Shown here: in pieces, positions 2,696 to 61,860 of the stretch
Layout of the letters: the number at the start of each line of letters is the position of its first letter
How positions within the stretch are numbered: the first letter of the stretch is position 1
Virus record (IMG/VR): IMGVR_UViG_2651869698_000005
Coordinates: 1 to 64,000 of that record
Reading direction: 5' to 3' (one strand)
DNA length: 64,000 nt
DNA from: a virus
Taxonomy: Duplodnaviria > Caudoviricetes
Made by a program: the position numbers and the translations under genes
Notes under the pieces: generated by a model
Told to the model about the DNA's origin: nothing
The model's input: only the letters and a program-made list of their open reading frames with translations
Database searches by the model: none

Positions 2696-3427
2696 ATGAC
2701 CACCGCAGCCCCCGCCAAGTCCGCAATGCTCGACAAAGTCCGCAAGCTCCTCGCGCAGGCCGACGACGTCGCCGGAACCCCCGAAGCCGACGCCTTCAAC
2801 GCGAAAGCATTCGAGCTCATCGCCCGCTACGGAATCGACGAGACCGAAGCCCGTCAGCGTGCCGGCCAGGGCCCCGCCCCGATCGAGGTCGCCGACTTCA
2901 CCATCGCCGGCAAGTACCAGACCGAGCAGATCAACCTGCTTCACTACCTCGCATCCGCCCTCCACTGCGAGGCGATGTGGATCAAGACCCGCCGCGACAG
3001 CCTCGCCGGCGACCGCCACGTCGTCTACGGCACCGCGATGCACATCGAGCGCGTCCGCATCCTCTTCTCCACCCTGATGCCTCAGATGATGGCGGGCGCA
3101 GCGAATGCCGAGGCGAACCCTTGGGTCAGCACGCAGGTCTGGCGTCGCTCCTGGATGCGCGGATTCGCTGCCACCGTCCACGACCGCCTGGCCGAGGCAG
3201 AGAAGTCGGCCACCGTCGACGCCGACGCCGGTACCGCGCTCGTCCTCGTCGACGATCGCAAGCGCGCCTCGCAGAAGATGTACGCCGACGCCGAGGGATC
3301 GAAGATCTCCCAGATCAAGTCGAAGGCGCAGTACGCCGCAGCCGCCGGCCGCGCCGGCAGTGAAGCGGCGTCGAAGGTCGACCTCGGCGGCGCATCCCTG
3401 CGCGGCTCGCGCGCCCTCGGCCGCTGA
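2696..3427 (+). CDS. DUF2786-domain protein
   Basis: N-terminal LDKVRKLLAQA...EADAFNAKAFELIARYGID signature. Confidence 0.8.
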   Translation: MTTAAPAKSAMLDKVRKLLAQADDVAGTPEADAFNAKAFELIARYGIDETEARQRAGQGPAPIEVADFTIAGKYQTEQINLLHYLASALHCEAMWIKTRRDSLAGDRHVVYGTAMHIERVRILFSTLMPQMMAGAANAEANPWVSTQVWRRSWMRGFAATVHDRLAEAEKSATVDADAGTALVLVDDRKRASQKMYADAEGSKISQIKSKAQYAAAAGRAGSEAASKVDLGGASLRGSRALGR

Positions 3428-11032: not shown

Positions 11033-11902
11033 TTACGTGAGAGTGCCTCCGTCGGGAACCGTCGGCGCGTCGATGGCATTGACGGCGTCTTTCGACCAAC
11101 GGGAGGCGATGAGAGAAGACAGTTTCGTGCCGCCTTTGACCTGGCATTCGGCGAACGAAAAGGTGCCGTCGGCGACGATGGTGTAACTCATCGACAGCCG
11201 AACCCACACCCATTGCTCGGGCGGCGCATCGGGGGCGATCTCCTCGACGACGAACGTGTGACTGAACGCCGACGAGTTCGGGAAGTTCACTCCGACGAAG
11301 CCCTGCTGCTCGACGGCGACAGGGGTGACGGCATCGAAGCGCCGGGAGGTCAGCAGCTTGCCGGCCGGGGTCATCACTTCGAGCAGGAATACCGGCTTGA
11401 TCGGCGAGTAGGTGTTGATCGCCACGAAGTAGGGCGGATAGATCACCGGGAGGTAGGTGACGTTGGAGGTGTAGCCGGAGACGGTCACGTGGGCGTCGAC
11501 GCGCCAGAGGCCGCCGGCCTTGAGCGCCAACCATCCCGAGTTCGCGGACGGTTTGACCACGGCCGCTTTCTTCGCCGGGCCGATCTGGTTGTCGAACGGC
11601 AACACGACCCACTTGTTGTGCGGGATCATCCAGTTCATGCCCATCACCGCCGACACGTGGCCGGCAGCATTGTCGAGCAGGTCGAGGCGGTGAGCGAAGT
11701 TATTCTGCCCATCGGCGAGGGTGGCGCGAGTGGCGGCCACACGTCGAAACAGCTTCTCGTTGAAACCATCTGCGGCCAGCTCGAGTGCGTCGCGGGCGGC
11801 GGCGGTCTGGATCTGCTTCGCGGTCTCGGCGGTGACGTCCTGCGAGAAACGGCCGCCCTGGACCAGCGCGCCCTCGGGGGCGTCATGGTTGGGCATCGTC
11901 AC
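11033..11902 (-). CDS. Minor tail protein
   Basis: GTGA overlap with the upstream gene; paralog of 11899-12633. Confidence 0.7.
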   Translation of the reverse strand: MTMPNHDAPEGALVQGGRFSQDVTAETAKQIQTAAARDALELAADGFNEKLFRRVAATRATLADGQNNFAHRLDLLDNAAGHVSAVMGMNWMIPHNKWVVLPFDNQIGPAKKAAVVKPSANSGWLALKAGGLWRVDAHVTVSGYTSNVTYLPVIYPPYFVAINTYSPIKPVFLLEVMTPAGKLLTSRRFDAVTPVAVEQQGFVGVNFPNSSAFSHTFVVEEIAPDAPPEQWVWVRLSMSYTIVADGTFSFAECQVKGGTKLSSLIASRWSKDAVNAIDAPTVPDGGTLT

Positions 11903-12633
11903 GAGAGCGTGCCCCCATCTGGTGCGGTATCGAGCACGAGCGCGTTGGCAGTCCCTGTGTCCCAACGGTTCACAGATAGGGCTGAACGGAGGGTGCCGCC
12001 GTAGATGTTTGCCGATGTCTTTCCGTGACGGACCTGCACCCGAACCGCGAACGTGTTGTCAGTGGGGATGACGAACGTGTCGGAGAATGCGGCAGTCTCT
12101 GCGCCCTGCGGGCTGATGACGATGTCGAACTCGCGCTCGGTGTAGACCGTTCCGGTGCCGATGTAGTACACACTGACGAACACCGCCGCCGAGACCGTGG
12201 TGGTTCCCCACCCCGACGTCGGCGGATAGAACGACACATGAGCGTCGCAGCGCCACAGCCCTTTCGAGTCCATCAGGATGCCGCCCTGGAAGGGAGTGGC
12301 ACCCTTGTTCGGGCCGAGTTGGGTATCGAACGGCAACGTCACGCGCGTATTGCCGGCCACCGTCCAGTTCCTCGACATGAACGTCGAGCAGTATCCGCTC
12401 ACCGACTCGATCAGATCGACGCGCTCGGTGAGTTCGAGCTGCCCGTCTTTCACCTCACCGGCGAGGCCGGCGACATCATCCTTGACCCCGATCCAACTGT
12501 TCCCTGCGTCGGTGTAGAGCGTCCCGGCCTGGCCGGTCATCATGTTGCGAGCGGACTCTTCGGTGATGTCCTGGTTGTATCGGCCACCGAAAACCAGCGC
12601 CGAATCCGGTGGCGGACCATAGGGGGTAGTCAT
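11899..12633 (-). CDS. Minor tail protein
   Basis: MTTPYGPPPDSALVFGGRYNQDITEE N-terminus typical of actinophage minor tails. Confidence 0.75.
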   Translation of the reverse strand: MTTPYGPPPDSALVFGGRYNQDITEESARNMMTGQAGTLYTDAGNSWIGVKDDVAGLAGEVKDGQLELTERVDLIESVSGYCSTFMSRNWTVAGNTRVTLPFDTQLGPNKGATPFQGGILMDSKGLWRCDAHVSFYPPTSGWGTTTVSAAVFVSVYYIGTGTVYTEREFDIVISPQGAETAAFSDTFVIPTDNTFAVRVQVRHGKTSANIYGGTLRSALSVNRWDTGTANALVLDTAPDGGTLS

Positions 12634-13180: not shown

Positions 13181-13207
13181 TGCGATCCTTTCAGCGCGGC
13201 GAAGCGG

Positions 13208-14963
13208 TCAGAGAAGACCGAGATCCTTCGCCATTGACATGAGATCCTGTACAGCCGAAAGGGCCTTCATCACAGGATCTTCGGGCTCACGCTGGCCGAT
13301 GGTGATCTGCCAGCTAGGGGTGGAGTTTCGGTCCCACGCGAGGACCAGTTCGGTGACCCGGTCGACGAAGACCCGGCCCTCTTTCATGCCGAGCACTGTC
13401 GAGCCGACCCGGTCGCCGAGGTAGAAGTGGCCGTGGCCCTTCTGCCCGATTCGATACGGGCTGCCATCAGCGACGACGAGGGTGTGGCGGGTGACCTCAC
13501 GGGTCTGCCACAGCCCGGTTCGTAGGGCGATCAGCGCGGACAGTGTGTACGCGCGGTCGCCGCCCTCGGCGAACTTCTCATGGAAGTGAGACCAGCCAAG
13601 TCGTTGCGCGCGTGCAGGACTCTTCCATTTCTGGAACGCGAGCACGGTGTCGCTGTAGATAGGCTTAAGCACTGCGTCCACGGCCGCGCCGACCTGCGAC
13701 TGACCGAACAGGGAGCCGAGAAACCCACCGACACCGATGATTACAGCTGAGATCGCCTCATTTACGCCCGGTGCCGAGTGGCCTCCTGCGACGACACCGA
13801 CATCGGTCGCGGGCTTGAAACTGAAACGGCTGGACTGGATTCCGGTGAGATCGCCCTCGCGGAAGATCACCCACGGAGCAGCAGCCTCGGTGCCCATGTA
13901 CTCGGGGTCGAAGTACGCGGCCGGCATGTTCGGGTCGATGCTCGTCTGCACCGTCTCGGTGATGCCGTCTGAGTCGATGTGCACGAACTGCTTCGCCAGG
14001 CCGGTGAACAGGGAGCCGCCGAAGCTGGTACCCGTTGTGCGGGCCGACTTGTCGACGATCTCCCAGACCAGGCAGCCGGGCCGCAGGTTCGCGCCCTCCC
14101 ACGGGGGAGGATCGCCCGGCAGGTAGCGGCGGCACTCGATCGACAGTTCCGCGTCGGCGACGATGTTCTTCGCCAGGTCATGGAAGGTCTTGAATCGCGA
14201 ATGCACCACCGCGCCGGGGCTGGTGTCCTTGCCGGCGGCCGAGGGCTTGACCACCTGAGACCAGGTCGACTGGTCGAAGTTGAACCAGCCCTTCGGATCC
14301 ATCGGATCGTCGGGCAGCATCCAGAGGCTCGACTCGAGCCTCATTAGGTTCACCAGCAGGGTTGTTTCGAGGGCCCACTTCGCTCTACCGAAGAGGAGCC
14401 ATAGCCGCGGGAACTGTAGTTCCGCGGGCAGGAATGGGTTAGACCACTAGGCCCGTCGCCCACCTAATGACGCTGTCTCGCAGCGCTTTCAGTGGGCGAC
14501 GGACCCAGCACAGTATGTGCTTTGCATGTTCGTAGTCGTGCTTGAACAGCACGCGGACGATCTTCTTGCCGTCCTCCTGCTTGTCGAGCTGAACCTCGTC
14601 CATCGCGCCCGACCAGCGGGCACCGTCCTTGTCGACGGTGACGAAGATGTTCGTGGTGCCGCGTTCGTCGACGTCGCAGATCCATCGCGACATGAAGTAG
14701 TCGAGCGGCAGCTCGAGCGAGCCGGTACCGGTCTCGTTGTCGATGACCTGGAACTTGGCGGCGATCTCCTGGCGGACGATGCCGCGCAGGTTCCAGTCGC
14801 CGTCCCACAGCCGCACCATCGGGGGAGCGAGGCGCTCCTCTTTCTCGCGCTGCAGCCGTTCGGCGATGTCGTTGAATACCGAGTCGAAGTCGAGATCGGT
14901 ATCGGCGACGCCGGTGTCGGTGATCGAGCCGGGATAGATTGTCGTAGTTGAGGAATCGGTCAT
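13208..14963 (-). CDS. Minor tail protein (D29 gp28-like), interrupted by a 61-nt coding gap; predicted joined product 564 aa
   Basis: Upstream frame ends ...KHDYEHAKHILCW(14505); downstream frame opens W(14446)SNPFLPAELQFPRLWLLFG; removing 61 nt restores one ORF and the conserved KHI.VW.NPFL..ELQFP motif. Confidence 0.75.
14444..14508 (-). other. Hairpin coding gap (candidate translational bypass element or mini-intron)
   Basis: Matched TGG codons at 14507-14505 and 14446-14444; the intervening sequence folds into a 17-bp basal stem plus an apical stem-loop. Confidence 0.65.
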
Positions 14964-15856
14964 CGGAGCCCCCAGGGTCGGGACCATGGCCGCGGGCAGC
15001 GGACCTGGATTCCGGTGCCGGCATACGCGCCGGACACCGATACGGGGATTTGCGTCTTCTTGGTGTACGGCGGGACCGGGAACAGGAAGCTCACACCGTT
15101 CATGCGGGCCCAGAACTGCGACCCGTTGAGCGAAACCGCCTGATCTTCCATCGGGTCGCTGTTGATCACGACGTCCTCTTGCGGAAGCTGCGAGGGCATC
15201 AGGATCTTGCGTTCAGCCCAGTCGTCGTCCTTCCATGAGAAGTCCGGGACCATCCACCGCCCAGGCGCTTTGAGCACCCACTTGAGCCAGATCGGCAGGT
15301 CGGTAGGATTGGAGACGGTGACGAAACCGCGGTCGATTCGCGTCACTCCCGTCGCCGGGTCGATCCCGCGAGTGTCGAGTGTCGACGTCCACGAGTCCGT
15401 GACGTCCTTCTCGTACCAGTAGGGATTGCCGGCCGCGCAGGTCATCGTGATCACGGCCCACTGCTTGAGGTGCGGGTCGTTCTTCGGCTTGAAGTCGGGC
15501 TGCTCGGACATTCGCAGCTTGAGCGACCGCGCCCCGTACTCGGTGGTGATCACCAGGGTCGAGTCACGGTCGTACGCCCACGCTTTGCGCCAGGCCGAGT
15601 CCACGTCCTCCCATTCGAGGGATTCAGTGGCCCATACGTTGACCGCAAAGACGATGTCGCGCTTGTTCGTTCGGTAGCCGCCGGGTGATGCGCCGATCTG
15701 GAATGCCGTAGCGTTCCAGATCGTCGTGACCGGGGCGTCGTAGATGCCGATCGGGTTGGTCGCCAGTTCGACACCCTCGAGCCCCTGACCGGGGCCCGAG
15801 AGTGTCCACCTGGAACCGTCCACCCCTATCAGCTCGATAGTTGCGGGCGATGCCAC
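14960..15856 (-). CDS. Minor tail protein (distal tail, gp27-like)
   Basis: TIELIGVDGSRWTLSGP...NPTDLPIWLKW...PRPWSRPWGL; first gene after the tape measure. Confidence 0.85.
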   Translation of the reverse strand: MASPATIELIGVDGSRWTLSGPGQGLEGVELATNPIGIYDAPVTTIWNATAFQIGASPGGYRTNKRDIVFAVNVWATESLEWEDVDSAWRKAWAYDRDSTLVITTEYGARSLKLRMSEQPDFKPKNDPHLKQWAVITMTCAAGNPYWYEKDVTDSWTSTLDTRGIDPATGVTRIDRGFVTVSNPTDLPIWLKWVLKAPGRWMVPDFSWKDDDWAERKILMPSQLPQEDVVINSDPMEDQAVSLNGSQFWARMNGVSFLFPVPPYTKKTQIPVSVSGAYAGTGIQVRCPRPWSRPWGLR

Positions 15857-28875: not shown

Positions 28876-30180
28876 TTAGCGGGCGATGTCGATCTGCTCG
28901 CGTCGTCTCATGCGTGGGACGGTCGGGTGCGCGTCGACGTGCTCGCGGATGCGGGTCTGGATGGCTCGTGTGCGGGCGTTCGCCTTGGCGGCGGCCTCGG
29001 GTGTCATCGCGGCCGCGCGGCGACGCTTGCTCATCCTGACGGCCCGTTCGAGGGCCCGAAGTTGCTGTGTCGCCGCGTAATCGGCCTCGTCGACTTCGGG
29101 TGCGGCCGGCAGGGGATCGCCGGGCACCCACAACGTCACCCAGTGCTTGCAGTTGGGGTGGTTGAATCCGCGGCGGCGGGCATCTGCGAGGGAGGTGATC
29201 ACTCGCGGCCGCCACTCTTCGTCGCCATCGGAGGTCGTCGCCCCGGTCGCCGAGAGCAGATGCCCTTGGAAGGGAGCGCACATCGGCGAGCAGTTGGCGT
29301 GAATCGACACGCGCACCAGGTCGTAGCCGTACTCGGCGAGGAGGGTGACGTGTGCGTCGATCGCGGTCTGCGCGGCAGCGGTACGGGTCGCCATCTCGAC
29401 GAAGGTCGTCATCGACCAGCGCCGGCCACCGCGGTCGATGTAGGCGGTGATACCGCGTGCGGCGTATCGGTCGATCAGCTTCTGCGCCAGGCGGAGTCGC
29501 TCTGCCTCGCTGGTGAGTGGGCTGGCGAGTACCTCGGCCATGACCTGCTGGTACATCTCCTCGGCGGAGCGGAGCATCTGCGGGGTCATCGCCTGCAGTT
29601 GCGGGAGCAGCTCGTTCGGGGTGCGAATGGTGACGCCGCGTTCGGTGCGTGGCCCGCGGGGGGCGGTCTTGCGGAGATCGTCCAGGGTGAGATCCGCAGG
29701 GGAGTCGGGTGCTCGATGCCGGCCGACTGCCATCGGGTCATCGAGTTCGATCGGATCGGGCAGGCTCGGCTGCAGATCGGGGCGCTCAGATGCGCTCCTG
29801 CCGCGCCGAGATGGCCGATCCGCGGGAGATGTCCCGGCAGCACGGTTCCGGCCTGCAGGAGTGCCGTCAGGGGCGCGTCGGGTACGGCGGAGAGTTTCGC
29901 GTGCGGCGTCCTCGCCGGCTGCCTCCGCTTCGACGAGGGCCTCGGCTGCGCGAGCCCGGCCACGCCGAGTCAACGCGGAGAGCTGCTGGCGGACCTTGTT
30001 GCGGAAGCGGTTCAGGCGGGTGAACTTGTCGGCGACCGATCCGCGGATCTCCTCGGCCACAGCCGATGCGACCAGGCCGATCAGGATCAGCTCGGCGGCC
30101 GAGTACTCGGCAACTACCGGCTCCTCGACGCCCTCGACTGCCGCTTCGGACACAGGCACCGGCTGCTCTTCGGGATCCAC
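28876..30180 (-). CDS. Minor capsid / MuF-like protein (Phage_min_cap2)
   Basis: DRGGRRW...EMATRT, CSPMCAPFQG, FNHPNCKH, QLRALER motifs. Confidence 0.85.
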   Translation of the reverse strand: MDPEEQPVPVSEAAVEGVEEPVVAEYSAAELILIGLVASAVAEEIRGSVADKFTRLNRFRNKVRQQLSALTRRGRARAAEALVEAEAAGEDAARETLRRTRRAPDGTPAGRNRAAGTSPADRPSRRGRSASERPDLQPSLPDPIELDDPMAVGRHRAPDSPADLTLDDLRKTAPRGPRTERGVTIRTPNELLPQLQAMTPQMLRSAEEMYQQVMAEVLASPLTSEAERLRLAQKLIDRYAARGITAYIDRGGRRWSMTTFVEMATRTAAAQTAIDAHVTLLAEYGYDLVRVSIHANCSPMCAPFQGHLLSATGATTSDGDEEWRPRVITSLADARRRGFNHPNCKHWVTLWVPGDPLPAAPEVDEADYAATQQLRALERAVRMSKRRRAAAMTPEAAAKANARTRAIQTRIREHVDAHPTVPRMRRREQIDIAR

Positions 30181-34810: not shown

Positions 34811-34888
34811 TGGCATGGATGGCAGGATTTGAACCTGCGATAACGGTTTTGGAGACCGCCGCTTTGGGCCTGACTAAGCAACATCCAC
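34811..34888 (-). tRNA. tRNA-Trp (CCA)
   Basis: Cloverleaf GTGGATG/CATCCAT; anticodon loop CT-CCA-AA; T-loop TTCAAAT; encoded CCA end. Confidence 0.85.
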
Positions 34889-34925
34889 GGGTAAAGACCA
34901 CGCCCACAAGGGGTCGCGGTGGGTG

Positions 34926-34998
34926 TGCCCCCTGATGGACTCGAACCATCGACCGACGGATTAAGAGTCCGCAGCTCTACCAACTGAGCTAAAGGGGC
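34926..34998 (-). tRNA. tRNA-Lys (CTT)
   Basis: GCCCCTT/AGGGGGC acceptor; TAGCTCAGTTGGTAGAGC; loop CT-CTT-AA; TTCGAGT. Confidence 0.9.
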
Positions 34999-35055
34999 GG
35001 GTCGGTGATCCTTGACGGGGATCAGGCGGGCGTAAGAATGTGGAGTCGCCACCCG

Positions 35056-35127
35056 CTCTCCCGCGAGGACTCGAACCTCGATTACCTCGTCCAGAGCGAG
35101 GCGGCCTGCCAATTAGCCGACGGGAGA
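35056..35127 (-). tRNA. tRNA-Gln (CTG)
   Basis: TCTCCCG/CGGGAGA acceptor; loop CT-CTG-GA; TTCGAGT. Confidence 0.88.
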
Positions 35128-35293
35128 AGGAGACCCGATTCGCGAGCACCGGGCCAGCAGGGGGGCGTTGCCAAACGTCGCTGACTGTGCACGGTCATGC
35201 GAAGGGGGAATGCCGTTTACGGCGGCATCACGATCCCCTCACCCAAGAAGGAGGGCGGCGTCGGTGACCGGTCAGGGTGAGGACGCCGCCTTG

Positions 35294-35366
35294 CTGGCCC
35301 GGCAGGGATCGAACCTGCGACATCGCGATTAACAGTCGCGCGCTCTGCCATCTGAGCTACGGGCCA
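35294..35366 (-). tRNA. tRNA-Asn (GTT)
   Basis: TGGCCCG/CGGGCCA acceptor; loop CT-GTT-AA; TTCGATC. Confidence 0.9.
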
Positions 35367-35398
35367 ATGTCTCGGATATTCGCGTCCGAGAGGCGCTT

Positions 35399-35767
35399 TC
35401 AGCTGATGGTGATGCGGCGCTGCGAGGTCGAGATCGCTCCCTGATCCTGCAGTTCCTTGATCGCGCGGTTGAAGTCACGCGGGCTGATGTCGAGGGCGTC
35501 GCGGACCTGCTTGCGGTCGAACGTGCCTGTGCCGCGGGTGCGTAGCCCCTTGAGTACCTGGGCGCGCTGCTTCGAGTGCAGCTCGGAGTTGTCCGACTTC
35601 GGTGCGGCCGGCGCAGCGGGCTTGCTGAGCTTCGCACCACCGAGCTTCGCGCCGCCGAGCTTTCGGCCGCCGAGCTTAGGGGCCGAGGGGCTCGACTTGC
35701 CGCCGTTACGGGCCTTGAGCGACTTCGAGATCGCAGCCTTGTGAGCTGCGGAGAGTGGCTTGCCCAT
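35399..35767 (-). CDS. Basic protein with C-terminal winged-HTH
   Basis: KLGG repeats followed by RKQVRDALDISPRDFNRAIKELQDQGAI. Confidence 0.6.
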   Translation of the reverse strand: MGKPLSAAHKAAISKSLKARNGGKSSPSAPKLGGRKLGGAKLGGAKLSKPAAPAAPKSDNSELHSKQRAQVLKGLRTRGTGTFDRKQVRDALDISPRDFNRAIKELQDQGAISTSQRRITIS

Positions 35768-35964
35768 CAGCGGCCCGGCTTCTTCGGAGCTGCCTTCTTA
35801 GGGGCCGCCTTCTTCGGTGCGGCCTTGCCGGCTGCGGCGATCTTGCCGGCCAGGAACGGCGGGAGATCAGCCTTACCGGCGGCGGGCTTCTTGCCGGCGG
35901 CTGCCTTCTTGGCGGCGGCGTTCTTTGCGAATGCGGGGGGCATGACGCCCTTTTTCGGAGCCAT
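35767..35964 (-). CDS. Histone H1-like Lys/Ala/Pro-rich protein (65 aa)
   Basis: MAPKKGVMPPAFAKNAAAKK...KAAPKKAAPKKAAPKK; GAGGA RBS. Confidence 0.65.
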   Translation of the reverse strand: MAPKKGVMPPAFAKNAAAKKAAAGKKPAAGKADLPPFLAGKIAAAGKAAPKKAAPKKAAPKKPGR

Positions 35965-36021
35965 TGGGGTGTTCCTCTGTTTGGATTCGGCCAGCCGCCG
36001 AGACTGGCGGGGTAGGGGGAG

Positions 36022-36098
36022 TGGTTGCGGGAGCGGGGATCGAACCCGCGACATCCGGCGTATGAGACCGGCGCTCTGGCCGACTGAGCTATCCCGCG
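36022..36098 (-). tRNA. tRNA-Met (CAT), initiator-like
   Basis: C1:A72 mismatch (CGCGGGA/TCCCGCA); loop CT-CAT-AC; encoded CCA end. Confidence 0.85.
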
Positions 36099-38908: not shown

Positions 38909-39691
38909 TCAGGTTCCTTTCACGTCGCCGAAGGCGAGGACGTGGATGCGATGGGTGGCGTTGATGTGGAGATCTGCTGCTGTGCGGGCGATCTCGGGCC
39001 AGCGGGCCTGTAGTTCTTCGGTGCTGGTGCCGAGGGGCATCACCCAGGTCTGCGAGAGCGGCCAGTTGTGGTCGTTGGCGTAGTCGACGGCCTGGCGGAC
39101 ATCGTCGGCGTCGGCGACGACGAACTTGAGGGCGGCGTTGCGCTGCAGCGGCCAGCGGGCGTGGCCGGGAGCGGGGTCGGAGTTGACGAATGCGGACCAC
39201 AGCGGGGTCAGGGCGGCGTTGCGGCCGCGGTGATCTCCCGCGTTCGCCAGCTTCGGGGAGATCGAGGCATGGTCGACGTAGCGGCGGGTGACCGCGTTCG
39301 GGAAGATCGTGCCGTTCGTTTCGAGCTGGATCTCGCAGCCCTTCTCGGCGAGGCCCTTGAGCACGTACTCCCATGCCGGCCGACCCTGATGCAGGAGCGG
39401 TTCGCCGCCGGAGATGACCATGATGACGCCGGGCAGGGCGTCGTCGACGATCTGCTGCGCGGTCTTCGGCGGGCATTCGGCCTTGATGTCGAACCGTGTC
39501 GTGTCCCAGGTGTAGGGGGTGTCACACCAGCTGCAGGAGAGGTTGCACAGGCCGAAGCGCACGAACTGGACGAGGCGGCCGGCGAGGGGGCCTTCGCCCT
39601 GGATGGTGGGGCCGAACTGCTCGGACGTCGGGAGCGTCTGGCTGCCGGGGTTGTACCGGCGGAGTTCGAGTCCGAGGTCGACGGCGGTCAC
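38909..39691 (-). CDS. queE: 7-carboxy-7-deazaguanine synthase (radical SAM)
   Basis: TIQGEG, CNLSCSWCDT, SGGEPLL, ETNGT, SPKL. Confidence 0.93.
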   Translation of the reverse strand: MTAVDLGLELRRYNPGSQTLPTSEQFGPTIQGEGPLAGRLVQFVRFGLCNLSCSWCDTPYTWDTTRFDIKAECPPKTAQQIVDDALPGVIMVISGGEPLLHQGRPAWEYVLKGLAEKGCEIQLETNGTIFPNAVTRRYVDHASISPKLANAGDHRGRNAALTPLWSAFVNSDPAPGHARWPLQRNAALKFVVADADDVRQAVDYANDHNWPLSQTWVMPLGTSTEELQARWPEIARTAADLHINATHRIHVLAFGDVKGT

Positions 39692-40104
39692 CGGACCCAC
39701 GTCGCTGCGTTGACTCGGGTCTCCTGGACGTGGCACTTCACGAGCTCGAGGTCGGGCAGAAGGAAGACGGCGATGTCGGCCAGCTTCTCCGCCAGCGCCT
39801 CGGTCGTCGGATGATCCTCGAGGAACAGCACTTTCATGCCGTGCTCCTCGAGGAATTCGCCGACGAAGTCACCCCGCTTGACCACGAACCCGTGGTCGAG
39901 GTGCTCGTCGACCCAACCTCGCAGCTCGGACTTGATATTCGAGAACTCGGCACCGTTGCCGGCCGCGACGTCGGGGACCGCGAAGGTCCACTCGATCCAG
40001 AAGCTGTGGCCGTGGACGTTGCCGCACTTCGCGCCGCCGCCGGGCAGGCCGGGGATGCGGTGGGCGGTCTCGGCGTTATGGGAAACCGTTATTTGGAGTG
40101 TCAC
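39688..40104 (-). CDS. queD: 6-carboxy-tetrahydropterin synthase
   Basis: AHRI...CGNVHGHS, LDHG, PTTEALA, VQET. Confidence 0.92.
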   Translation of the reverse strand: MTLQITVSHNAETAHRIPGLPGGGAKCGNVHGHSFWIEWTFAVPDVAAGNGAEFSNIKSELRGWVDEHLDHGFVVKRGDFVGEFLEEHGMKVLFLEDHPTTEALAEKLADIAVFLLPDLELVKCHVQETRVNAATWVR

Positions 40105-42723: not shown

Positions 42724-43307
42724 TGCTCGAGGAGACTCAGGAGCGCGCTGTCGTCGTCCGAGTAGTTCTTGCGGTGATCGGTCCAGGCCCGCTTGGTGTC
42801 GGGGTCGATCTTGAACGAGAGGTTGACCAGCGCGTCCTCTTCGGTGGGGTCGCCGACTTCGTCGAGCAGATCGTCGAGTGACGGTGCGCCGCCGACGATC
42901 TCCTCGAGGGCGGTGATGTCGCCCTGGTCGTAGCCGGTGCCGTCGAGATCGGGCAGATCGGCGAGCAGCTCGAGGAGCAGCCGGTCGTCGAACGAGCCCT
43001 TCTCGGAGGACCGGTTGTCGATCAGGACGATGCGATCGGCGCGGTCGTCGTCGACGTCGACGAAGTGGATGAGCGGGTTCTGCCACTTGTCCTCGTCGGG
43101 GAAGTTCTCGGCCAGATCACGCAGGGCCTTGAGGGTGTGGTTGCCCTTGAGCACCTCGTTCGGGCGGCCGGTGTAGGTGCCCTTGTTGACGACGATCGGC
43201 ACGTACTGGCCGTTGGCGCGGAGGCTGGCGTAGATGGCGGCGACGTCGCCCTTGCGGGGGTTCTTGTGGAAGAGGTTGAGGTCGGAGATCGGCAGGGTCT
43301 CGGGCAT
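42720..43307 (-). CDS. ParB-like N-terminal domain protein
   Basis: NPRKGDV..I..SL...GQYVPIVVN...VLKGNHTLKA...DNR. Confidence 0.85.
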   Translation of the reverse strand: MPETLPISDLNLFHKNPRKGDVAAIYASLRANGQYVPIVVNKGTYTGRPNEVLKGNHTLKALRDLAENFPDEDKWQNPLIHFVDVDDDRADRIVLIDNRSSEKGSFDDRLLLELLADLPDLDGTGYDQGDITALEEIVGGAPSLDDLLDEVGDPTEEDALVNLSFKIDPDTKRAWTDHRKNYSDDDSALLSLLEQ

Positions 43308-54404: not shown

Positions 54405-55660
54405 GCCGCCACCAGCGCTTCTGCGGTCTCAGTGTCGATGATGTCGGCGTCGAGCTGCTTGGTCTCGAACTGGAAGAACAGCGGCGACTTCGCCTTGAAG
54501 ATCTGCGGGGTCAGGCCCTCGACGCGGACGCATACGCCTTCGTCGACGATGGGGTTCTTCTTGGTGCCCTCCTCGAGGGGAACGGCCAGGAACGGCAGGG
54601 TCTCGCTGAGCCGCTTGTCCATGTAGGACTCGATCTCGATGAAGTCGTGCCGGCCGCGGTACAGGGCAGGGACTGTTTCGATGCCGACCTCGGCGCAGAA
54701 CTCGACCATCTGATCCCACGACAGGTCGGTGGCGCGTCCCTTCGTGGTGACCTGGACGACCCGGTAGACGTACAGGTCGGATGCGCCGATCGGCAGCCGG
54801 TAGGTGTACCCCTTCTGCACGGGCTTGCCGTCGGGGTGCCAGCCGATGATCTCGCCGTAGACGATGAATCCGGCGGGGATGCGGCCGCGGAGGCGCTCAC
54901 CCCACTGGGTCCAGATGTCGTCGTCGGTCAGCTGCTTCTGTCGGCCACGGGAGGCGGAGACGTAGTCGTACTCGGTGTCCTGGACCTTGACGCCGAGGCG
55001 CTTGGCGATGCGGTCGCGCAGGGTCAGGGGGCGGGGAACGATGGTGTGGGCGAGGCGAATCGAGGTTCCGTGGAGCTTCTGGGTGACGACGATGTTCTCG
55101 AACGGGGAGATCTGATCCTTGCAGCGGAAGTACTGCGGGGTGTCGAAGTGGCGGGGCAGGAACTTGGCGTCGGTGCGCTCGGCGGGCATCTGGCCGTTGC
55201 GGCCGGCGCTGGGGGCCTTGTAGTTCGACGGGTAGTACTTGCGGCAGATCGGGTGGCCGTTGATGGTGTCGAAGGTGTCGCCGACCTGCAGCTCGGTGGG
55301 GTCGATGCCGGTGTACAGCAGGCTCGACAGGGGCATCAGGAGGGCGTCGGAGCGGTTGCCGCGGAGCTTGATGGCTCGGACGCGGCGGTTGTCCTCGAGG
55401 TAGCCCGTTACGTTCTGGTCCGCGTTCAGTTCCGCATGGCGGTACATGTCGTTGGTGGAGGCGAAGTCGTGGTCGAGCTGGGCCTCGGCGGGGATGAACA
55501 GGGCGAGGTGTCCGGTCTGGAACACGTTCTTGCTGCTGATGATCTGGTAGCCGAACATCGGTATGGCAGCGAGGAAGTCGCTGTTCGGGAGGTCGAGGAT
55601 GGTGTTGATCTGGACTACGACGGCTGCGTAGTTCTCGTTTTCGGGTGCGGTGAGTTTCAT
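54401..55660 (-). CDS. ATP-dependent RNA ligase (Rnl2 / DRB0094-like)
   Basis: N-terminal OB-like domain; motif I TQKLHGTS; YGEI, DEGVCVR, FKAKS. Confidence 0.85.
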   Translation of the reverse strand: MKLTAPENENYAAVVVQINTILDLPNSDFLAAIPMFGYQIISSKNVFQTGHLALFIPAEAQLDHDFASTNDMYRHAELNADQNVTGYLEDNRRVRAIKLRGNRSDALLMPLSSLLYTGIDPTELQVGDTFDTINGHPICRKYYPSNYKAPSAGRNGQMPAERTDAKFLPRHFDTPQYFRCKDQISPFENIVVTQKLHGTSIRLAHTIVPRPLTLRDRIAKRLGVKVQDTEYDYVSASRGRQKQLTDDDIWTQWGERLRGRIPAGFIVYGEIIGWHPDGKPVQKGYTYRLPIGASDLYVYRVVQVTTKGRATDLSWDQMVEFCAEVGIETVPALYRGRHDFIEIESYMDKRLSETLPFLAVPLEEGTKKNPIVDEGVCVRVEGLTPQIFKAKSPLFFQFETKQLDADIIDTETAEALVAA

Positions 55661-60642: not shown

Positions 60643-61860
60643 TCAGTTGCCCTTGACGTTGAGGATCTGCCGCAGCTCGTGCTCGATGTCGACGAGGGTG
60701 GAGGCGTCAGCCATGACGACGTCGATGCTCTTGTAGGCGTCGGGGATCTCGTCGATGAACTCGGCGCTGTCGCGGTATTCGATGCCGGCCATCCGCTGCC
60801 GCAGGTCGTCCTGGGTGAACAGTTTCTTTGCTTTGGTGCGGGAGAAGACGCGGCCGGCACCGTGCGGGGCGGAGTGGAGGCCCGTGATCGAGCCCTTGCC
60901 GCGGACGACGTAGCTACGGGTGCCCATGCTGCCGGGGATTACGCCTCGGACGCCGTCGTTGGCGTCGATTGCGCCTTTGCGGGTCAGCCAGACGTCCTCG
61001 CCTGCAATGGTTTCGTGGACGGTGTAGTTGTGGTGGGCGTTGACGCGGTCCTTCTCGACGGTCTCGGGGTTGACCTCGAGCCAGTTGGCGAAGATGGAGA
61101 CGAAGCGGTCCATCATCTCGGCGCGGTTGAGGTAGGCGAACTGCTGGGCCCAATGCAACTCGCGGATGTATGCGGCGAACTCGGGGGTGCCCTCGTCGAG
61201 CCAGGCGTGGTCACGGTCGGCCAGTTCGTCACCGGCGGCCGCCCGCTGTTCCTGGGCGATCTTGATGTGCTTCTGGGCGATCTTGTTGCCGACGCCGCGG
61301 CTGCCGGAGTGCAGGAACAGCCACACGGTATCGGTTGCATCCAAGCACAATTCGATGAAGTGGTTGCCTGATCCGAGGGTGCCGAGCTGCTCGCGCCACT
61401 TCGGGGAGTGGGTCAGGTCGACCTCGTGGTAGCGGGCGATGTTCTCGAGCTCGACGATCTTTTCGGCGGTGAACTCGAACGCGGCGAGGGTCTTGTTGTA
61501 GTTGCCGGCCGAGACGGGGATGGAGGCTTCGATCGCCAGCCGCAGCTCACGGAGGCGGCCCGGCAGTCCACGGGAGTCGCCAGGGTAGGGATCGGCTTCG
61601 AGGTCCGCGAGGGTGTAGTTCGTTTCGACGGCGATCATGCCGCAACCGATGTCGACGCCGACGGCCGCCGGGATGACCGCGCCCTTGGTGGGGATGACGG
61701 TGCCGACGGAGGATCCCTTGCCGGCGTGGGCGTCTGGCATCAGGGCAATGTGCGGGTGGACGAACGGCAGCTCGGCGAGGGCGAGGGCCTGCTCGCGGGT
61801 GGTGTCGTCGAGGATGCTGGCGTAGTTGTACAGCTTCGGGGCGATCTGTGTCGGCGTCAT
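60643..61860 (-). CDS. rtcB: RtcB RNA ligase (3'-phosphate / 2',3'-cyclic phosphate)
   Basis: MPDAHAG, GVDIGCG, GTLGSGNHFIE, HSGSRG, HHNY, RKGA, PGSMG, HGAGR, DEIPDAYK. Confidence 0.95.
   Translation of the reverse strand: MTPTQIAPKLYNYASILDDTTREQALALAELPFVHPHIALMPDAHAGKGSSVGTVIPTKGAVIPAAVGVDIGCGMIAVETNYTLADLEADPYPGDSRGLPGRLRELRLAIEASIPVSAGNYNKTLAAFEFTAEKIVELENIARYHEVDLTHSPKWREQLGTLGSGNHFIELCLDATDTVWLFLHSGSRGVGNKIAQKHIKIAQEQRAAAGDELADRDHAWLDEGTPEFAAYIRELHWAQQFAYLNRAEMMDRFVSIFANWLEVNPETVEKDRVNAHHNYTVHETIAGEDVWLTRKGAIDANDGVRGVIPGSMGTRSYVVRGKGSITGLHSAPHGAGRVFSRTKAKKLFTQDDLRQRMAGIEYRDSAEFIDEIPDAYKSIDVVMADASTLVDIEHELRQILNVKGN

What the first reader, a model, noticed from the sequence alone, without database searches (positions are those of the whole stretch)
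14380..14530. Conserved tail gene split by a 61-nt hairpin gap with matched UGG codons: candidate translational bypass or mini-intron
Seen: the minus strand reads AAG CAC ATA CTG TGC [TGG] gtccgtcgcccactgaaagcgctgcgagacagcgtcattaggtgggcgacgggcctag [TGG] TCT AAC CCA TTC CTG CCC GCG GAA CTA CAG TTC. The first frame runs 21 more codons to a TAA at 14441-14439. The second frame opens directly after a TAG at 14449-14447. Removing exactly 61 nt (including one TGG) gives ...KHILCWSNPFLPAELQFPRLWLLFG... and a 564-aa ORF. This matches the KHIxVWxNPFLxxELQFP segment I recall from D29 gp28-type minor tail proteins. The gap folds into one hairpin: CTGGGTCCGTCGCCCAC/GTGGGCGACGGGCCTAG (17 bp with 2 G-U) plus an apical GCGCTG/CAGCGT stem, which brings the two junctions together. 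Flanking stem-loops also occur: GCACA-TAC-TGTGC just 5', and CCGCGG-AAC-TACA-GTT-C-CCGCGG just 3'. The flanks use codons rare in this genome (ATA, CTA, AGA, AGG), which suggests selection on RNA structure. Known: T4 gene 60 bypassing uses matched take-off and landing codons with flanking stem-loops. Unlike gene 60, no stop codon directly follows the take-off codon here. Inference: the options are (a) ribosomal hopping over a folded hairpin, (b) a non-canonical protein-assisted intron, plausible because the phage encodes RtcB and an ATP-dependent RNA ligase, or (c) a +1 frameshift at CTA-G-TGG. Any of these would be a regulated checkpoint on tail assembly.
Basis: partly seen in the sequence, partly recalled or inferred. 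Interest (0 to 1): 0.93.

Follow-up and report, generated by a model that had tools for sequence, protein, structure and literature searches.

The report
Hairpin coding gap in phage tail gene
A 58-base hairpin really does cut this prophage's tail gene in two, and it belongs to a small family of such hairpins found only in this kind of gene, which ribosomes probably hop over, though nobody has tested that.

Summary
A Sipho_Gp37 (PF14594) minor tail gene on the minus strand is interrupted after TGG 14507-14505 by 58 nt (14504-14447) plus a second TGG (14446-14444). The Pfam match breaks and resumes at profile position 99. The insert is not an assembly error: contigs of two other runs carry it without gaps.

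It belongs to a family. I read 21 distinct 48-72-nt GC-rich hairpin inserts in 19 Gp37 genes of Nocardia- and Rhodococcus-type prophages, at six conserved codons. They are single-copy per genome. They come in all three length classes modulo 3, and none can be translated through. Their stems show strong compensatory change. The host genes show no other lesion in the parts examined, with dN/dS about 0.1. The triplet before the resumed frame resembles the last exon-1 codon: its middle base is the same in 20 of 20.

Best reading (about 0.45): a gene-specific mobile coding gap tolerated by translational bypass, working like T4 gene 60 or yeast mitochondrial byps but not a member of either. Rivals are inactivating insertions and RNA-level removal. 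RtcB linkage is not general, and a +1 frameshift fails in relatives. I found no insert in isolated phages, by limited tests. Earlier notes of this scan describe the same family on other DNA; my four searches found no paper on it.

The parts
14505..14987 (-). Upstream coding piece of the Gp37-like minor tail gene, up to and including the take-off codon TGG (14507-14505)
   Evidence: ORF list. Pfam PF14594 profile 2-99, E 1.6e-26. PHROG 110.
14447..14504 (-). 58-nt insert. The main stem pairs 14508-14492 with 14463-14447. The apical stem pairs 14486-14481 with 14475-14470. Internal loops lie at 14491-14487 and 14469-14464. The insert ends in TAG (14449-14447), which is a stop in the resumed frame.
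   Evidence: Sequence and fold. 23 of 23 pairs are kept and 7 pairs changed on both sides against the Nocardia jiangxiensis copy. Absent from the intact relatives L003 and L004.
14444..14446 (-). Second TGG, the candidate landing triplet; the conserved frame resumes at TCT 14443-14441
   Evidence: The Pfam match of the downstream piece starts at this W, profile position 99.
13208..14443 (-). Downstream coding piece, with its stop included at the low end. The stretch 14443-14354 has no ATG, GTG or TTG in frame.
   Evidence: Pfam profile 99-369, E 8e-78. All 4 listed differences from other strains in 14354-14446 fall on third codon positions.
14439..14441 (-). TAA that ends the upstream frame if the insert is translated, adding 21 unrelated residues
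14508..14520 (-). Small 5' flanking stem-loop (5 bp, 3-nt loop); it shares C14508 with the main stem
   Evidence: Fold. Its conservation in relatives was not tested.
14405..14427 (-). 3' flanking stem-loop inside the resumed coding sequence
   Evidence: Fold. Its conservation in relatives was not tested.

Best explanation
The insert is one copy of a gene-specific family of small GC-rich hairpin 'coding gaps'. These sit at a few highly conserved codons of Gp37-like tail genes in prophages of Nocardia and Rhodococcus type. They move between diverged genes and do not destroy the gene.

The most likely way the gene stays functional is translational bypass. The ribosome reads to the Trp codon TGG (14507-14505). 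The peptidyl-tRNA then leaves the mRNA, and the ribosome passes the 58-nt hairpin without decoding it. The tRNA re-pairs at the second TGG (14446-14444), and decoding resumes at TCT.

Shown here: the insert, its family, its structural conservation, its single-copy and gene-specific distribution, host genes with no other lesion in the parts examined, and the pattern of the flanking triplets. Inferred: that full-length protein is made, and that hopping is the means. The trigger for take-off is unknown.
For: (1) The insert is real and shared. A contig of run X2 spans 13200-15000 with 80 substitutions and 0 gaps. A contig of X3 spans 14049-15000 with no gap near the insert.
(2) It has a family. 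I read 21 distinct inserts in 19 genes, at six sites (after W135, F139, W150, F153, L160 and V364 in P0111 numbering). Two genes carry two inserts each (L027; L103).
(3) The nine genes aligned over their whole length (query residues about 2-550) show no frameshift or stop other than the inserts. The other genes were examined only in part, or, for the IMG/VR loci, with a screen for inserts alone.
(4) Selection. For L014 against L015, dN/dS is 0.11 upstream. The first 30 codons after the insert show 20 synonymous and 0 non-synonymous differences. For L013 against L016, dN/dS is 0.10-0.14. Of 38 listed coding differences between the window and X2-X4, 32 are at third positions, 6 at first and 0 at second (my count).
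(5) Structure. In 8 F/LLF-site inserts, 97.7% of cells pair, 10 of 22 pairs changed on both sides, and 0 of 500 shuffles reach this. Window against L008: 23 of 23 pairs kept, 7 changed on both sides, 6 of 500 shuffles.
(6) It is not a genome-wide repeat. There is one copy in the 90-kb provirus. A BLAST of one hairpin against 5 host genomes gives significant hits only at Gp37 genes.
(7) The triplet before the resumed codon resembles the take-off codon. TGG is followed by TGG, TGC, TGA, TGT or TGA. TTT is followed by TTC four times, TTG, TTA and CTC twice. CTT is followed by CTC. GTN is followed by GTC twice, GTG, TTC twice and TTG. The middle base is the same in 20 of 20 read as DNA, and the amino acid is the same in 10 of 21.
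(8) Inserts occur in all three length classes modulo 3, and the in-frame ones carry a stop, so none can be translated through.
(9) In most W- and F-site inserts a purine- or G-rich run ends 5-7 nt before the landing triplet. This resembles the mini-SD spacing described for gene 60 relatives (passages of bioRxiv 10.1101/2022.08.31.505936).
(10) The carriers are spread over the Gp37 tree among intact genes. They include CheckV 94-100% complete metagenome contigs that IMG/VR classes as linear rather than provirus. That spread is hard to reconcile with an element that kills its phage.
Against: No stop codon or rare codon follows the take-off codon. It is always G[TC]C-like, which I recall to be common codons in these organisms. 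So the usual trigger for take-off is missing.

The stems (16-22 GC-rich bp) are far stronger than any take-off stem-loop known to me.

Landing triplets are imperfect in 11 of 21 cases, and include TGA and first-base mismatches.

A short target-site duplication that later decayed could also produce the resemblance between the triplets.

Compensatory change in a DNA palindrome can arise by template switching during replication, or by selection for mobility. It therefore does not prove an RNA role.

The polyphyletic distribution means many insertions may be recent, which weakens the 'no other lesion' argument.

I found no insert in isolated, plaque-forming phages. Of 705 records that match the 14 residues before the take-off, 0 extend into the insert-coded tail. 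Eight blastn queries across inserts never aligned through an insert. These tests are limited.

No RNA or protein data exist for any carrier.
Confidence: 0.45

Rival explanations
1. Inactivating insertions. A site-specific mobile hairpin has recently landed in tail genes of resident prophages and killed them. The genes look intact only because too little time has passed.
For: The carriers are polyphyletic and nested among intact genes; starred branches force at least 3 changes for each of the W, F and PGV groups. The inserts differ far less than synonymous sites of their host genes: 10 of 55 and 10 of 52 positions, against pS of 0.6-0.88. This fits recent horizontal arrival. Most carriers are prophages. 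None was found among isolated phages by my tests. Ordinary decayed copies of this gene also exist (P0129 and P0131; L022).
Against: The nine carrier genes aligned end to end show no second lesion, and I saw none in the parts of the others that I examined. Two genes carry two inserts. An element that makes its phage non-infectious has no obvious route between diverged phage lineages and host genera, yet it occurs in Rhodococcus-type and many Nocardia prophages and in metagenome contigs. Insert-bearing strains about 95% identical to the window differ almost only at third codon positions in both halves. The middle base of the landing triplet never differs (20 of 20).
Confidence: 0.27
2. RNA-level removal. 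The hairpin is cut out of the mRNA by a host or phage nuclease and the ends are rejoined, for example by the provirus RNA ligase or RtcB, giving a continuous message.
For: The provirus encodes RtcB and an RNA_ligase-family protein. Hairpin structure is conserved. Removal at the RNA level would explain tolerance of any length class and of imperfect landing triplets.
Against: The link to RtcB is not general. Of 5 insert-bearing Nocardia genomes, 1 has no RtcB match and the other 4 have a single match that is unlinked or distant. The required junctions are asymmetric: the 5' one lies 4-9 nt inside the stem and the 3' one 0-14 nt beyond it. This does not fit cleavage by a double-strand-specific RNase or a bulge-helix-bulge motif (my reading). 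No Rfam family matches 14200-14750 at E up to 1. From my own knowledge, no such bacterial mRNA splicing is known.
Confidence: 0.12
3. Split gene. The two halves are made as separate polypeptides, the second by re-initiation near the landing triplet, and they assemble into a working tail protein.
For: A purine-rich run sits 5-7 nt before the landing triplet in many inserts. In 3 inserts the landing triplet is TTG or GTG (L014, L043, L021). The inserts sit in two narrow regions of the protein.
Against: In the window the resumed frame has no ATG, GTG or TTG for 31 codons, yet those codons are conserved. Most landing triplets (TGG, TGC, TGA, TGT, TTC, TTA, CTC, GTC) are not start codons. The sites lie inside the most conserved motifs, not at obvious domain borders.
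Confidence: 0.06
4. The insert is translated, with a +1 shift at CUA-G-UGG in the window, or stop read-through in relatives, adding about 19 residues to the protein.
For: In the window the upstream frame stays open through the whole insert, so a single +1 shift just before the second TGG would restore the frame.
Against: Relatives would need different events: lengths fall in all three classes modulo 3, and in-frame inserts carry stops. The insert-coded peptides are not conserved beyond what the stem sequence dictates. The insertion would sit inside an invariant motif.
Confidence: 0.04

Closest known systems
Phage T4 gene 60 50-nt translational bypass cassette and its relatives in myovirus topoisomerase genes (Manning and Atkins, bioRxiv 10.1101/2022.08.31.505936; passages read)
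   Same: It is a non-coding gap of about 50 nt inside an essential phage gene. The take-off codon lies in the 5' side of a stem-loop. Take-off and landing triplets are matched or wobble-matched. A G-rich run lies 5-7 nt before the landing triplet, followed by a rather A/T-rich spacer. Stem pairs are conserved through compensatory change. It behaves as mobile DNA at a conserved site.
   Different: No stop or rare codon follows the take-off codon. The stem is 16-22 bp, against a short stem with a tetraloop. No homing-endonuclease gene lies beside it: the neighbours are a Phage_gene29-family gene and two genes with no Pfam family. The host gene and host phylum are different. Landing triplets are looser (first-base mismatches, TGA). 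No nascent-peptide signal is known.
Byps of Magnusiomyces capitatus mitochondria (known to me only from passages and from recall of Lang et al. 2014 and Nosek et al. 2015, which I did not read here)
   Same: They are short GC-rich hairpin-forming inserts in protein-coding genes, sometimes several per gene. They are thought to spread like miniature mobile elements. They have matched triplets with tolerated deviations and an A/U-richer 3' part.
   Different: Byps are many per genome (81, in 12 of 15 genes) and occur in many genes. The family here is single-copy per genome and restricted to one gene family. Byps rely on slow or unassigned codons after take-off, which is not the case here. They are mitochondrial, not bacterial.
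Streptomyces phage phiHau3 terminase, with candidate UUA-triggered bypass of 10-nt inserts (PMC10732093; outline and passages read)
   Same: It is an actinobacterial phage with frame-breaking inserts in an essential structural or packaging gene, proposed to be bypassed.
   Different: Its inserts are 7-10 nt and depend on the rare UUA codon. No long hairpin is bypassed, and the gene is different.
MITE and REP-type palindromic repeats, and Rickettsia palindromic elements (from recall)
   Same: They are small palindromic DNA without coding capacity. A possible 3-nt target duplication is shared, and Rickettsia elements insert into coding sequence.
   Different: The family here is not repeated in the genome and is confined to one gene family. 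It is never translatable, whereas Rickettsia elements are in frame and translated.

Membership tests
T4 gene 60-type bypass cassette | Matched take-off and landing codons readable by one tRNA | tested here: met
   Window: TGG and TGG. In the family the match is only partial: the same amino acid in 10 of 21, and the middle base the same in 20 of 20.
T4 gene 60-type bypass cassette | Stop or very rare codon directly after the take-off codon | tested here: not met
   The next codon is GTC in the window. It is GTC, GCC, GCT, GTT, GTG or GGC in the 20 other inserts read.
T4 gene 60-type bypass cassette | [quoted passage not shown] | tested here: met
   The stem is much longer than in gene 60.
T4 gene 60-type bypass cassette | Mini Shine-Dalgarno 5-6 nt before the landing codon | tested here: inconclusive
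   A G-rich run ends 5 nt before the landing TGG in the window and 5-7 nt before it in most W- and F-site inserts. But the whole 3' arm is G-rich, and PGV-site inserts lack a clear one. No statistical test was made.
T4 gene 60-type bypass cassette | Part of a MobA (HNH) homing-endonuclease element in a topoisomerase gene | tested here: not met
   The host gene is PF14594. The neighbours are a Phage_gene29-family gene and two genes with no Pfam family.
T4 gene 60-type bypass cassette | Stimulatory nascent peptide | not testable with these tools
   The upstream peptide is conserved in all Gp37 proteins, with or without the insert, so conservation says nothing here.
Mitochondrial byps | Many copies per genome in many genes | tested here: not met
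   One copy in the provirus. Significant hits occur only at Gp37 genes in 5 host genomes.
MITE / REP repeats | Multi-copy, dispersed, mostly intergenic | tested here: not met
   A strict structure pattern found 1 real hit in 185,579 species genomes and none in the viral or metagenome collections beyond the known locus.
Group I / group II introns, ribozymes | Match to a known catalytic RNA family | tested here: not met
   Rfam gives 0 matches at E up to 1 in 14200-14750. The insert is a single 58-nt hairpin.
Inteins | In-frame insert with splicing domains | tested here: not met
   The insert is 61 nt and out of frame. True mini-inteins do occur in homologues one or two codons away (PF14890 in P0081, P0106 and P0112).

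The most novel reading that the evidence does not exclude
These hairpins are a new mechanistic class of programmed translational bypass. The ribosome hops a folded 16-22-bp helix with no stop or hungry codon, perhaps driven by the hairpin re-forming with the last exon-1 bases behind it and by a mini-SD before the landing triplet. The hairpin itself is a protein-less selfish element that homes to a few invariant codons of one tail-gene family, next to the sites that inteins use.
Probability: 0.4. Interest if true: 0.9.

Novelty: new variant of a known kind. Interest (0 to 1): 0.8.

Why it matters
Natural programmed bypass is firmly established only for T4 gene 60 and its relatives and for one yeast mitochondrion. 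A second bacterial family would show which signals are truly needed, because this one has a different architecture: a long hairpin and no stop codon at take-off.

It would also correct annotation. These tail genes are now called as two fragments or as pseudogenes, and the prophages may be wrongly scored as defective.

It would add a new type of minimal selfish element that lives inside an essential gene without coding for anything.

The question is directly testable in culturable Rhodococcus or Nocardia strains, and with reporters in Mycolicibacterium smegmatis.

Tried and rejected
Expression data: no RNA holder was listed for 13200-15000, so RNA-level questions could not be addressed. In run X4 no contig covers 14479-14538; I draw nothing from that.

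The DNA behind P0080, P0121 and P0122 was therefore never seen. P0121 and P0122 are judged from their protein tails only.

Rhodococcus-side relatives: a sample of 401 genomes of the family, and two genus searches (6 and 41 genomes), gave no split copy near the window's lineage.

Strict stem patterns found nothing new. One search gave 0. Searches gave only L005. One search gave L008 plus 3 chance hits (read). One search gave 3 chance hits (read).

Isolated phages: tblastn of P0002 hit 2430 records, 2427 of them with at least 80% in one place. This cannot show inserts, because joined pieces count as one place. One candidate 'two-gene' record (NearlyHeadless) proved to be a single intact gene. 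Eight blastn queries across inserts never aligned through an insert; the low-complexity filter and the divergence of the flanks limit this test. A 26-aa query ending in the LLF-site tail gave 8 of 1240 records with at least 80% coverage.

Rare codons or GC3 dips as a signal were rejected as non-specific. Other strong hairpins in the window: none like this one among the 25 longest inverted repeats. A homing endonuclease next to the gene: none. A +1 frameshift as a general mechanism is rejected (see the rival explanations). A transcription terminator is rejected because no T-run follows the stem. Assembly error is rejected.

Literature: four searches found no description of hairpin inserts in Gp37-like tail genes. 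PMC4351075 and PMC12646305 mention possible bypass in other mycobacteriophage genes only (passages). PMC5462505, PMC6551183 and bioRxiv 10.1101/2024.12.09.627546 were seen only as search listings with the start of the abstract. Supplements were not opened.

The IQ-TREE run is the quick tree; the careful search did not finish.
Full report
**What is there.** The window is the first 64 kb of a 90,137-base provirus record, with CheckV completeness 99%. Its tail module lies on the minus strand: a 1714-aa tape measure gene, a 339-aa gene, then the gene in question. That gene belongs to Pfam Sipho_Gp37 (PF14594) and PHROG 110, 'minor tail protein'.

It is in two pieces. The upstream piece starts at the ATG at 14987. 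It matches Pfam profile positions 2-99 and ends its match at Trp161, the TGG at 14507-14505. The downstream piece matches profile positions 99-369, starting at a second TGG at 14446-14444. Between them lie 58 nt (14504-14447). If the 58 nt are translated, the upstream frame adds 21 unrelated residues and stops at the TAA at 14441-14439. The downstream frame opens right after the TAG at 14449-14447 and has no ATG, GTG or TTG for its first 31 codons.

Full-length relatives of 539-575 aa read straight through this motif. So does the DNA of the closest IMG/VR relative, L003 (74% identical protein), and of L004. The 161-nt region folds at -75.5 kcal/mol, with z = -5.05 and 0 of 200 shuffles as low.

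**It is not an artefact.** Logan contigs of four runs were laid on 13200-15000. X1 is identical and may be the source. A 5135-nt contig of X2 (another organism label, another study) spans the whole stretch with 80 substitutions and no gap. A 9542-nt contig of X3 spans 14049-15000 with gaps only at 14893-14934. The same 61 extra bases therefore stand in at least two other assemblies, about 95% identical. A 177-aa protein from a further assembly, P0121 (90% identical), ends in the same insert-coded tail with one residue changed.

**It has a family.** Short proteins related to the upstream piece (11 found) include six whose tails betray an insert:
- P0121, P0122 (56% identical) and P0126 (53%, Nocardia jiangxiensis) break after the same Trp and have related tails.
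- P0123 and P0124 break four codons later, after NPF.
- P0125 breaks after LLF.

The N. jiangxiensis DNA (L005 = L008) shows a 72-nt in-frame insert with a TAA at the same Trp codon.

A six-frame search of 267 Nocardia species genomes found the gene in 152. I fetched 15 suspect places and later 8 whole genes. I found small hairpin inserts after W135, F139, F153 and V364 (P0111 numbering).

Of 80 IMG/VR loci (the best 80 of 158 relatives), 67 have no detected insertion and 3 have ordinary in-frame indels. The remaining 10 carry 11 hairpin inserts, which add sites after W150 and L160. Four of those ten look the same as Nocardia loci I already held.

In all I read 21 distinct inserts in 19 genes. 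They are 48-72 nt long and fall in all three classes modulo 3; the in-frame ones carry a stop. Each is a near-perfect GC-rich hairpin that starts right after the last exon-1 codon. The 3' side of each hairpin goes on to pair with the last 4-9 bases of exon 1. Two genes carry two inserts each (L027, L103).

**What the family shows.**

First, the hairpin is kept as a structure. In eight F- and LLF-site inserts, 97.7% of cells pair, 10 of 22 pairs changed on both sides, and 0 of 500 shuffles reach this. Slid controls pair at 44-59%. The window's insert and the N. jiangxiensis one keep 23 of 23 pairs, with 7 changed on both sides; 4 of those are in the apical stem. The internal loops are conserved.

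Second, the insert is not a dispersed repeat. There is one copy in the provirus. One hairpin used as a BLAST query hit, at E below 0.001, only the Gp37 genes of 3 of 5 host genomes; everything else was short GC-rich noise.

Third, the host genes are otherwise whole. Nine genes aligned end to end (query residues about 2-550) show no lesion other than the inserts. I saw none in the parts of the others that I examined.

Fourth, the coding sequence around the inserts is under purifying selection. For L014 against L015, dN/dS is 0.11 upstream, and the first 30 codons after the insert show 20 synonymous and 0 non-synonymous differences. For L013 against L016, dN/dS is 0.10-0.14. Of the 38 coding differences listed between the window and X2-X4, 32 are third positions, 6 first and 0 second. 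All 4 in the start-less stretch are third positions (my count; 142 further differences were not listed).

Fifth, the inserts are much more alike than the synonymous sites around them (10 of 55 and 10 of 52 positions differ, against pS of 0.6-0.88). On a tree of a 210-residue uninterrupted stretch, the carriers of each site are scattered among intact genes. Starred branches force at least 3 changes for each of the W, F and PGV groups (quick tree only). So either the inserts move between diverged genes at the same codon, or they have been lost precisely many times.

Sixth, the triplet just before the resumed codon looks like the take-off codon:
- TGG is followed by TGG (window), TGC, TGA, TGT or TGA.
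- TTT is followed by TTC four times, TTG, TTA and CTC twice.
- CTT is followed by CTC.
- GTN is followed by GTC twice, GTG, TTC twice and TTG.
- One further Val case was read only as protein.

The middle base is the same in 20 of 20. The first base differs in 5. Most differences are at the third base.

**How it most likely works.** An element that broke an essential tail gene would strand its phage. Yet this one is spread over many Gp37 lineages and over at least two host genera. It also occurs in CheckV 94-100% complete metagenome contigs that IMG/VR classes as linear rather than provirus. I therefore put about two in three on the gene still giving full-length protein.

Among the ways to achieve that, translational bypass fits best. 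The architecture runs as follows: the take-off codon lies in the 5' side of a stem-loop; the gap cannot be translated; a purine-rich run ends 5-7 nt before a near-cognate landing triplet; and the last bases of the gap are rather A/T-rich. This parallels what Manning and Atkins describe for gene 60 relatives. They also note that re-pairing in the P site tolerates deviations, and that yeast byps tolerate larger ones (passages).

Two things are unlike gene 60. No stop or rare codon follows the take-off codon, and the stem is very long. The take-off trigger is therefore unexplained. One regularity may bear on it: the 5' arm beyond the take-off codon is always 13-16 nt. From my own knowledge, this is about the length of mRNA held downstream of the P site. 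The link is inference only.

**Rivals.**

*Inactivating insertions (0.27).* The scattered distribution, the similarity between inserts, and my failure to find any carrier among isolated phages support this. Of 705 records matching the 14 residues before the take-off, 0 extend into the tail. Eight blastn queries never aligned through an insert. Eight of 1240 records remain uninspected.

*RNA-level removal (0.12).* The provirus does encode RtcB and an RNA-ligase-family protein. But one of five insert-bearing Nocardia genomes has no RtcB match, and the other four have only an unlinked or distant one. The junctions sit asymmetrically on the hairpin. Rfam finds nothing.

*Two separate polypeptides with re-initiation (0.06).* Most landing triplets are not start codons.

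*Translation of the insert with a +1 shift (0.04).* This is possible for the window alone, but it cannot serve relatives with other length classes and in-frame stops.

**Caveats on my own evidence.** Compensatory change in a DNA palindrome can come from template switching, or from selection for mobility, rather than from an RNA function. The triplet resemblance could be a decayed 3-nt target duplication, although the untouched middle base argues for a codon-anticodon-like constraint. The cases are not phylogenetically independent.

**Comparison with what is known.** It works like a gene 60 cassette or a mitochondrial byp, but it is a member of neither family (see the membership table). It is not a MITE or REP repeat, an intron, a ribozyme or an intein. 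True mini-inteins do sit one or two codons from the W150 and F153 sites, and near V364, in homologues. These short conserved stretches are therefore shared targets of selfish elements.

My four literature searches found no description of this family. The nearest actinophage case is the 10-nt UUA-dependent candidate bypass in the phiHau3 terminase (PMC10732093). Earlier AI notes of this scan (e1-5352816, e1-6205336, e1-6205348) describe the same family on other DNA and reach the same reading. I re-derived the family independently. I confirmed the 72-nt Nocardia copy. I could not confirm the claim that plaque-forming mycobacteriophages carry it.

**Verdict.** It is a new variant of a known kind (programmed bypass of a coding gap), with a confidence of 0.45 for bypass and about 0.65 for 'the gene still works'. 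Interest: 0.8.

Noticed in passing
window 34811-36098 (-): A cluster of five phage tRNA genes: Trp(CCA), Lys(CTT), Gln(CTG), Asn(GTT) and Met(CAT). The Trp tRNA reads the very codon (TGG) at which the tail gene is interrupted. ARAGORN places its anticodon at position 37. Whether it plays any part is unknown.
   Followed up: no
window 60649-61791 (-) and 54491-55096 (-): RtcB (PF01139, 357.9 bits) and an RNA_ligase-family gene (PF09414, 66.2 bits) lie in the provirus. Together with the tRNA cluster they look like an RNA-repair set. They are not linked to hairpin inserts in other genomes.
   Followed up: partly
L023 (G094:C14) and L026 (G234:C1); also rows with open frames of 696-859 aa: Mini-inteins of about 130 residues (Cys start, HN-Cys end) sit between W150 and F153 of Gp37 homologues. 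Others split the match at residues 364-376. These positions are one or two codons from the hairpin sites.
   Followed up: partly
L027 (G167:C2) and L103 (IMG/VR provirus G641): Single tail genes that carry two separate hairpin inserts each: F139 plus V364, and F139 plus L160. L027 has no other lesion over its full length; L103 was checked only with the insert screen.
   Followed up: yes
P0080 (377 aa, named by its source Rhodococcus sp. HM1): A called protein that starts at the same internal Met as the window's called C-terminal fragment (P0001). This suggests another interrupted copy at 63% identity.
   Followed up: no
L022 (G055:C14:87323-88600): A Gp37 copy with rearranged and duplicated segments after residue 183. 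It is an ordinary decayed copy, useful as a contrast to the cleanly interrupted ones.
   Followed up: no
window, e.g. 3229-3254, 11494-11501, 12214-12221, 28932-28939, 39442-39449, 39966-39973, 43055-43062, 54541-54548: Nine of the 25 longest inverted repeats in the window are overlapping palindromes centred on the same 8-base palindrome, CGTCGACG. This may be chance in GC-rich DNA or a recognition site.
   Followed up: no
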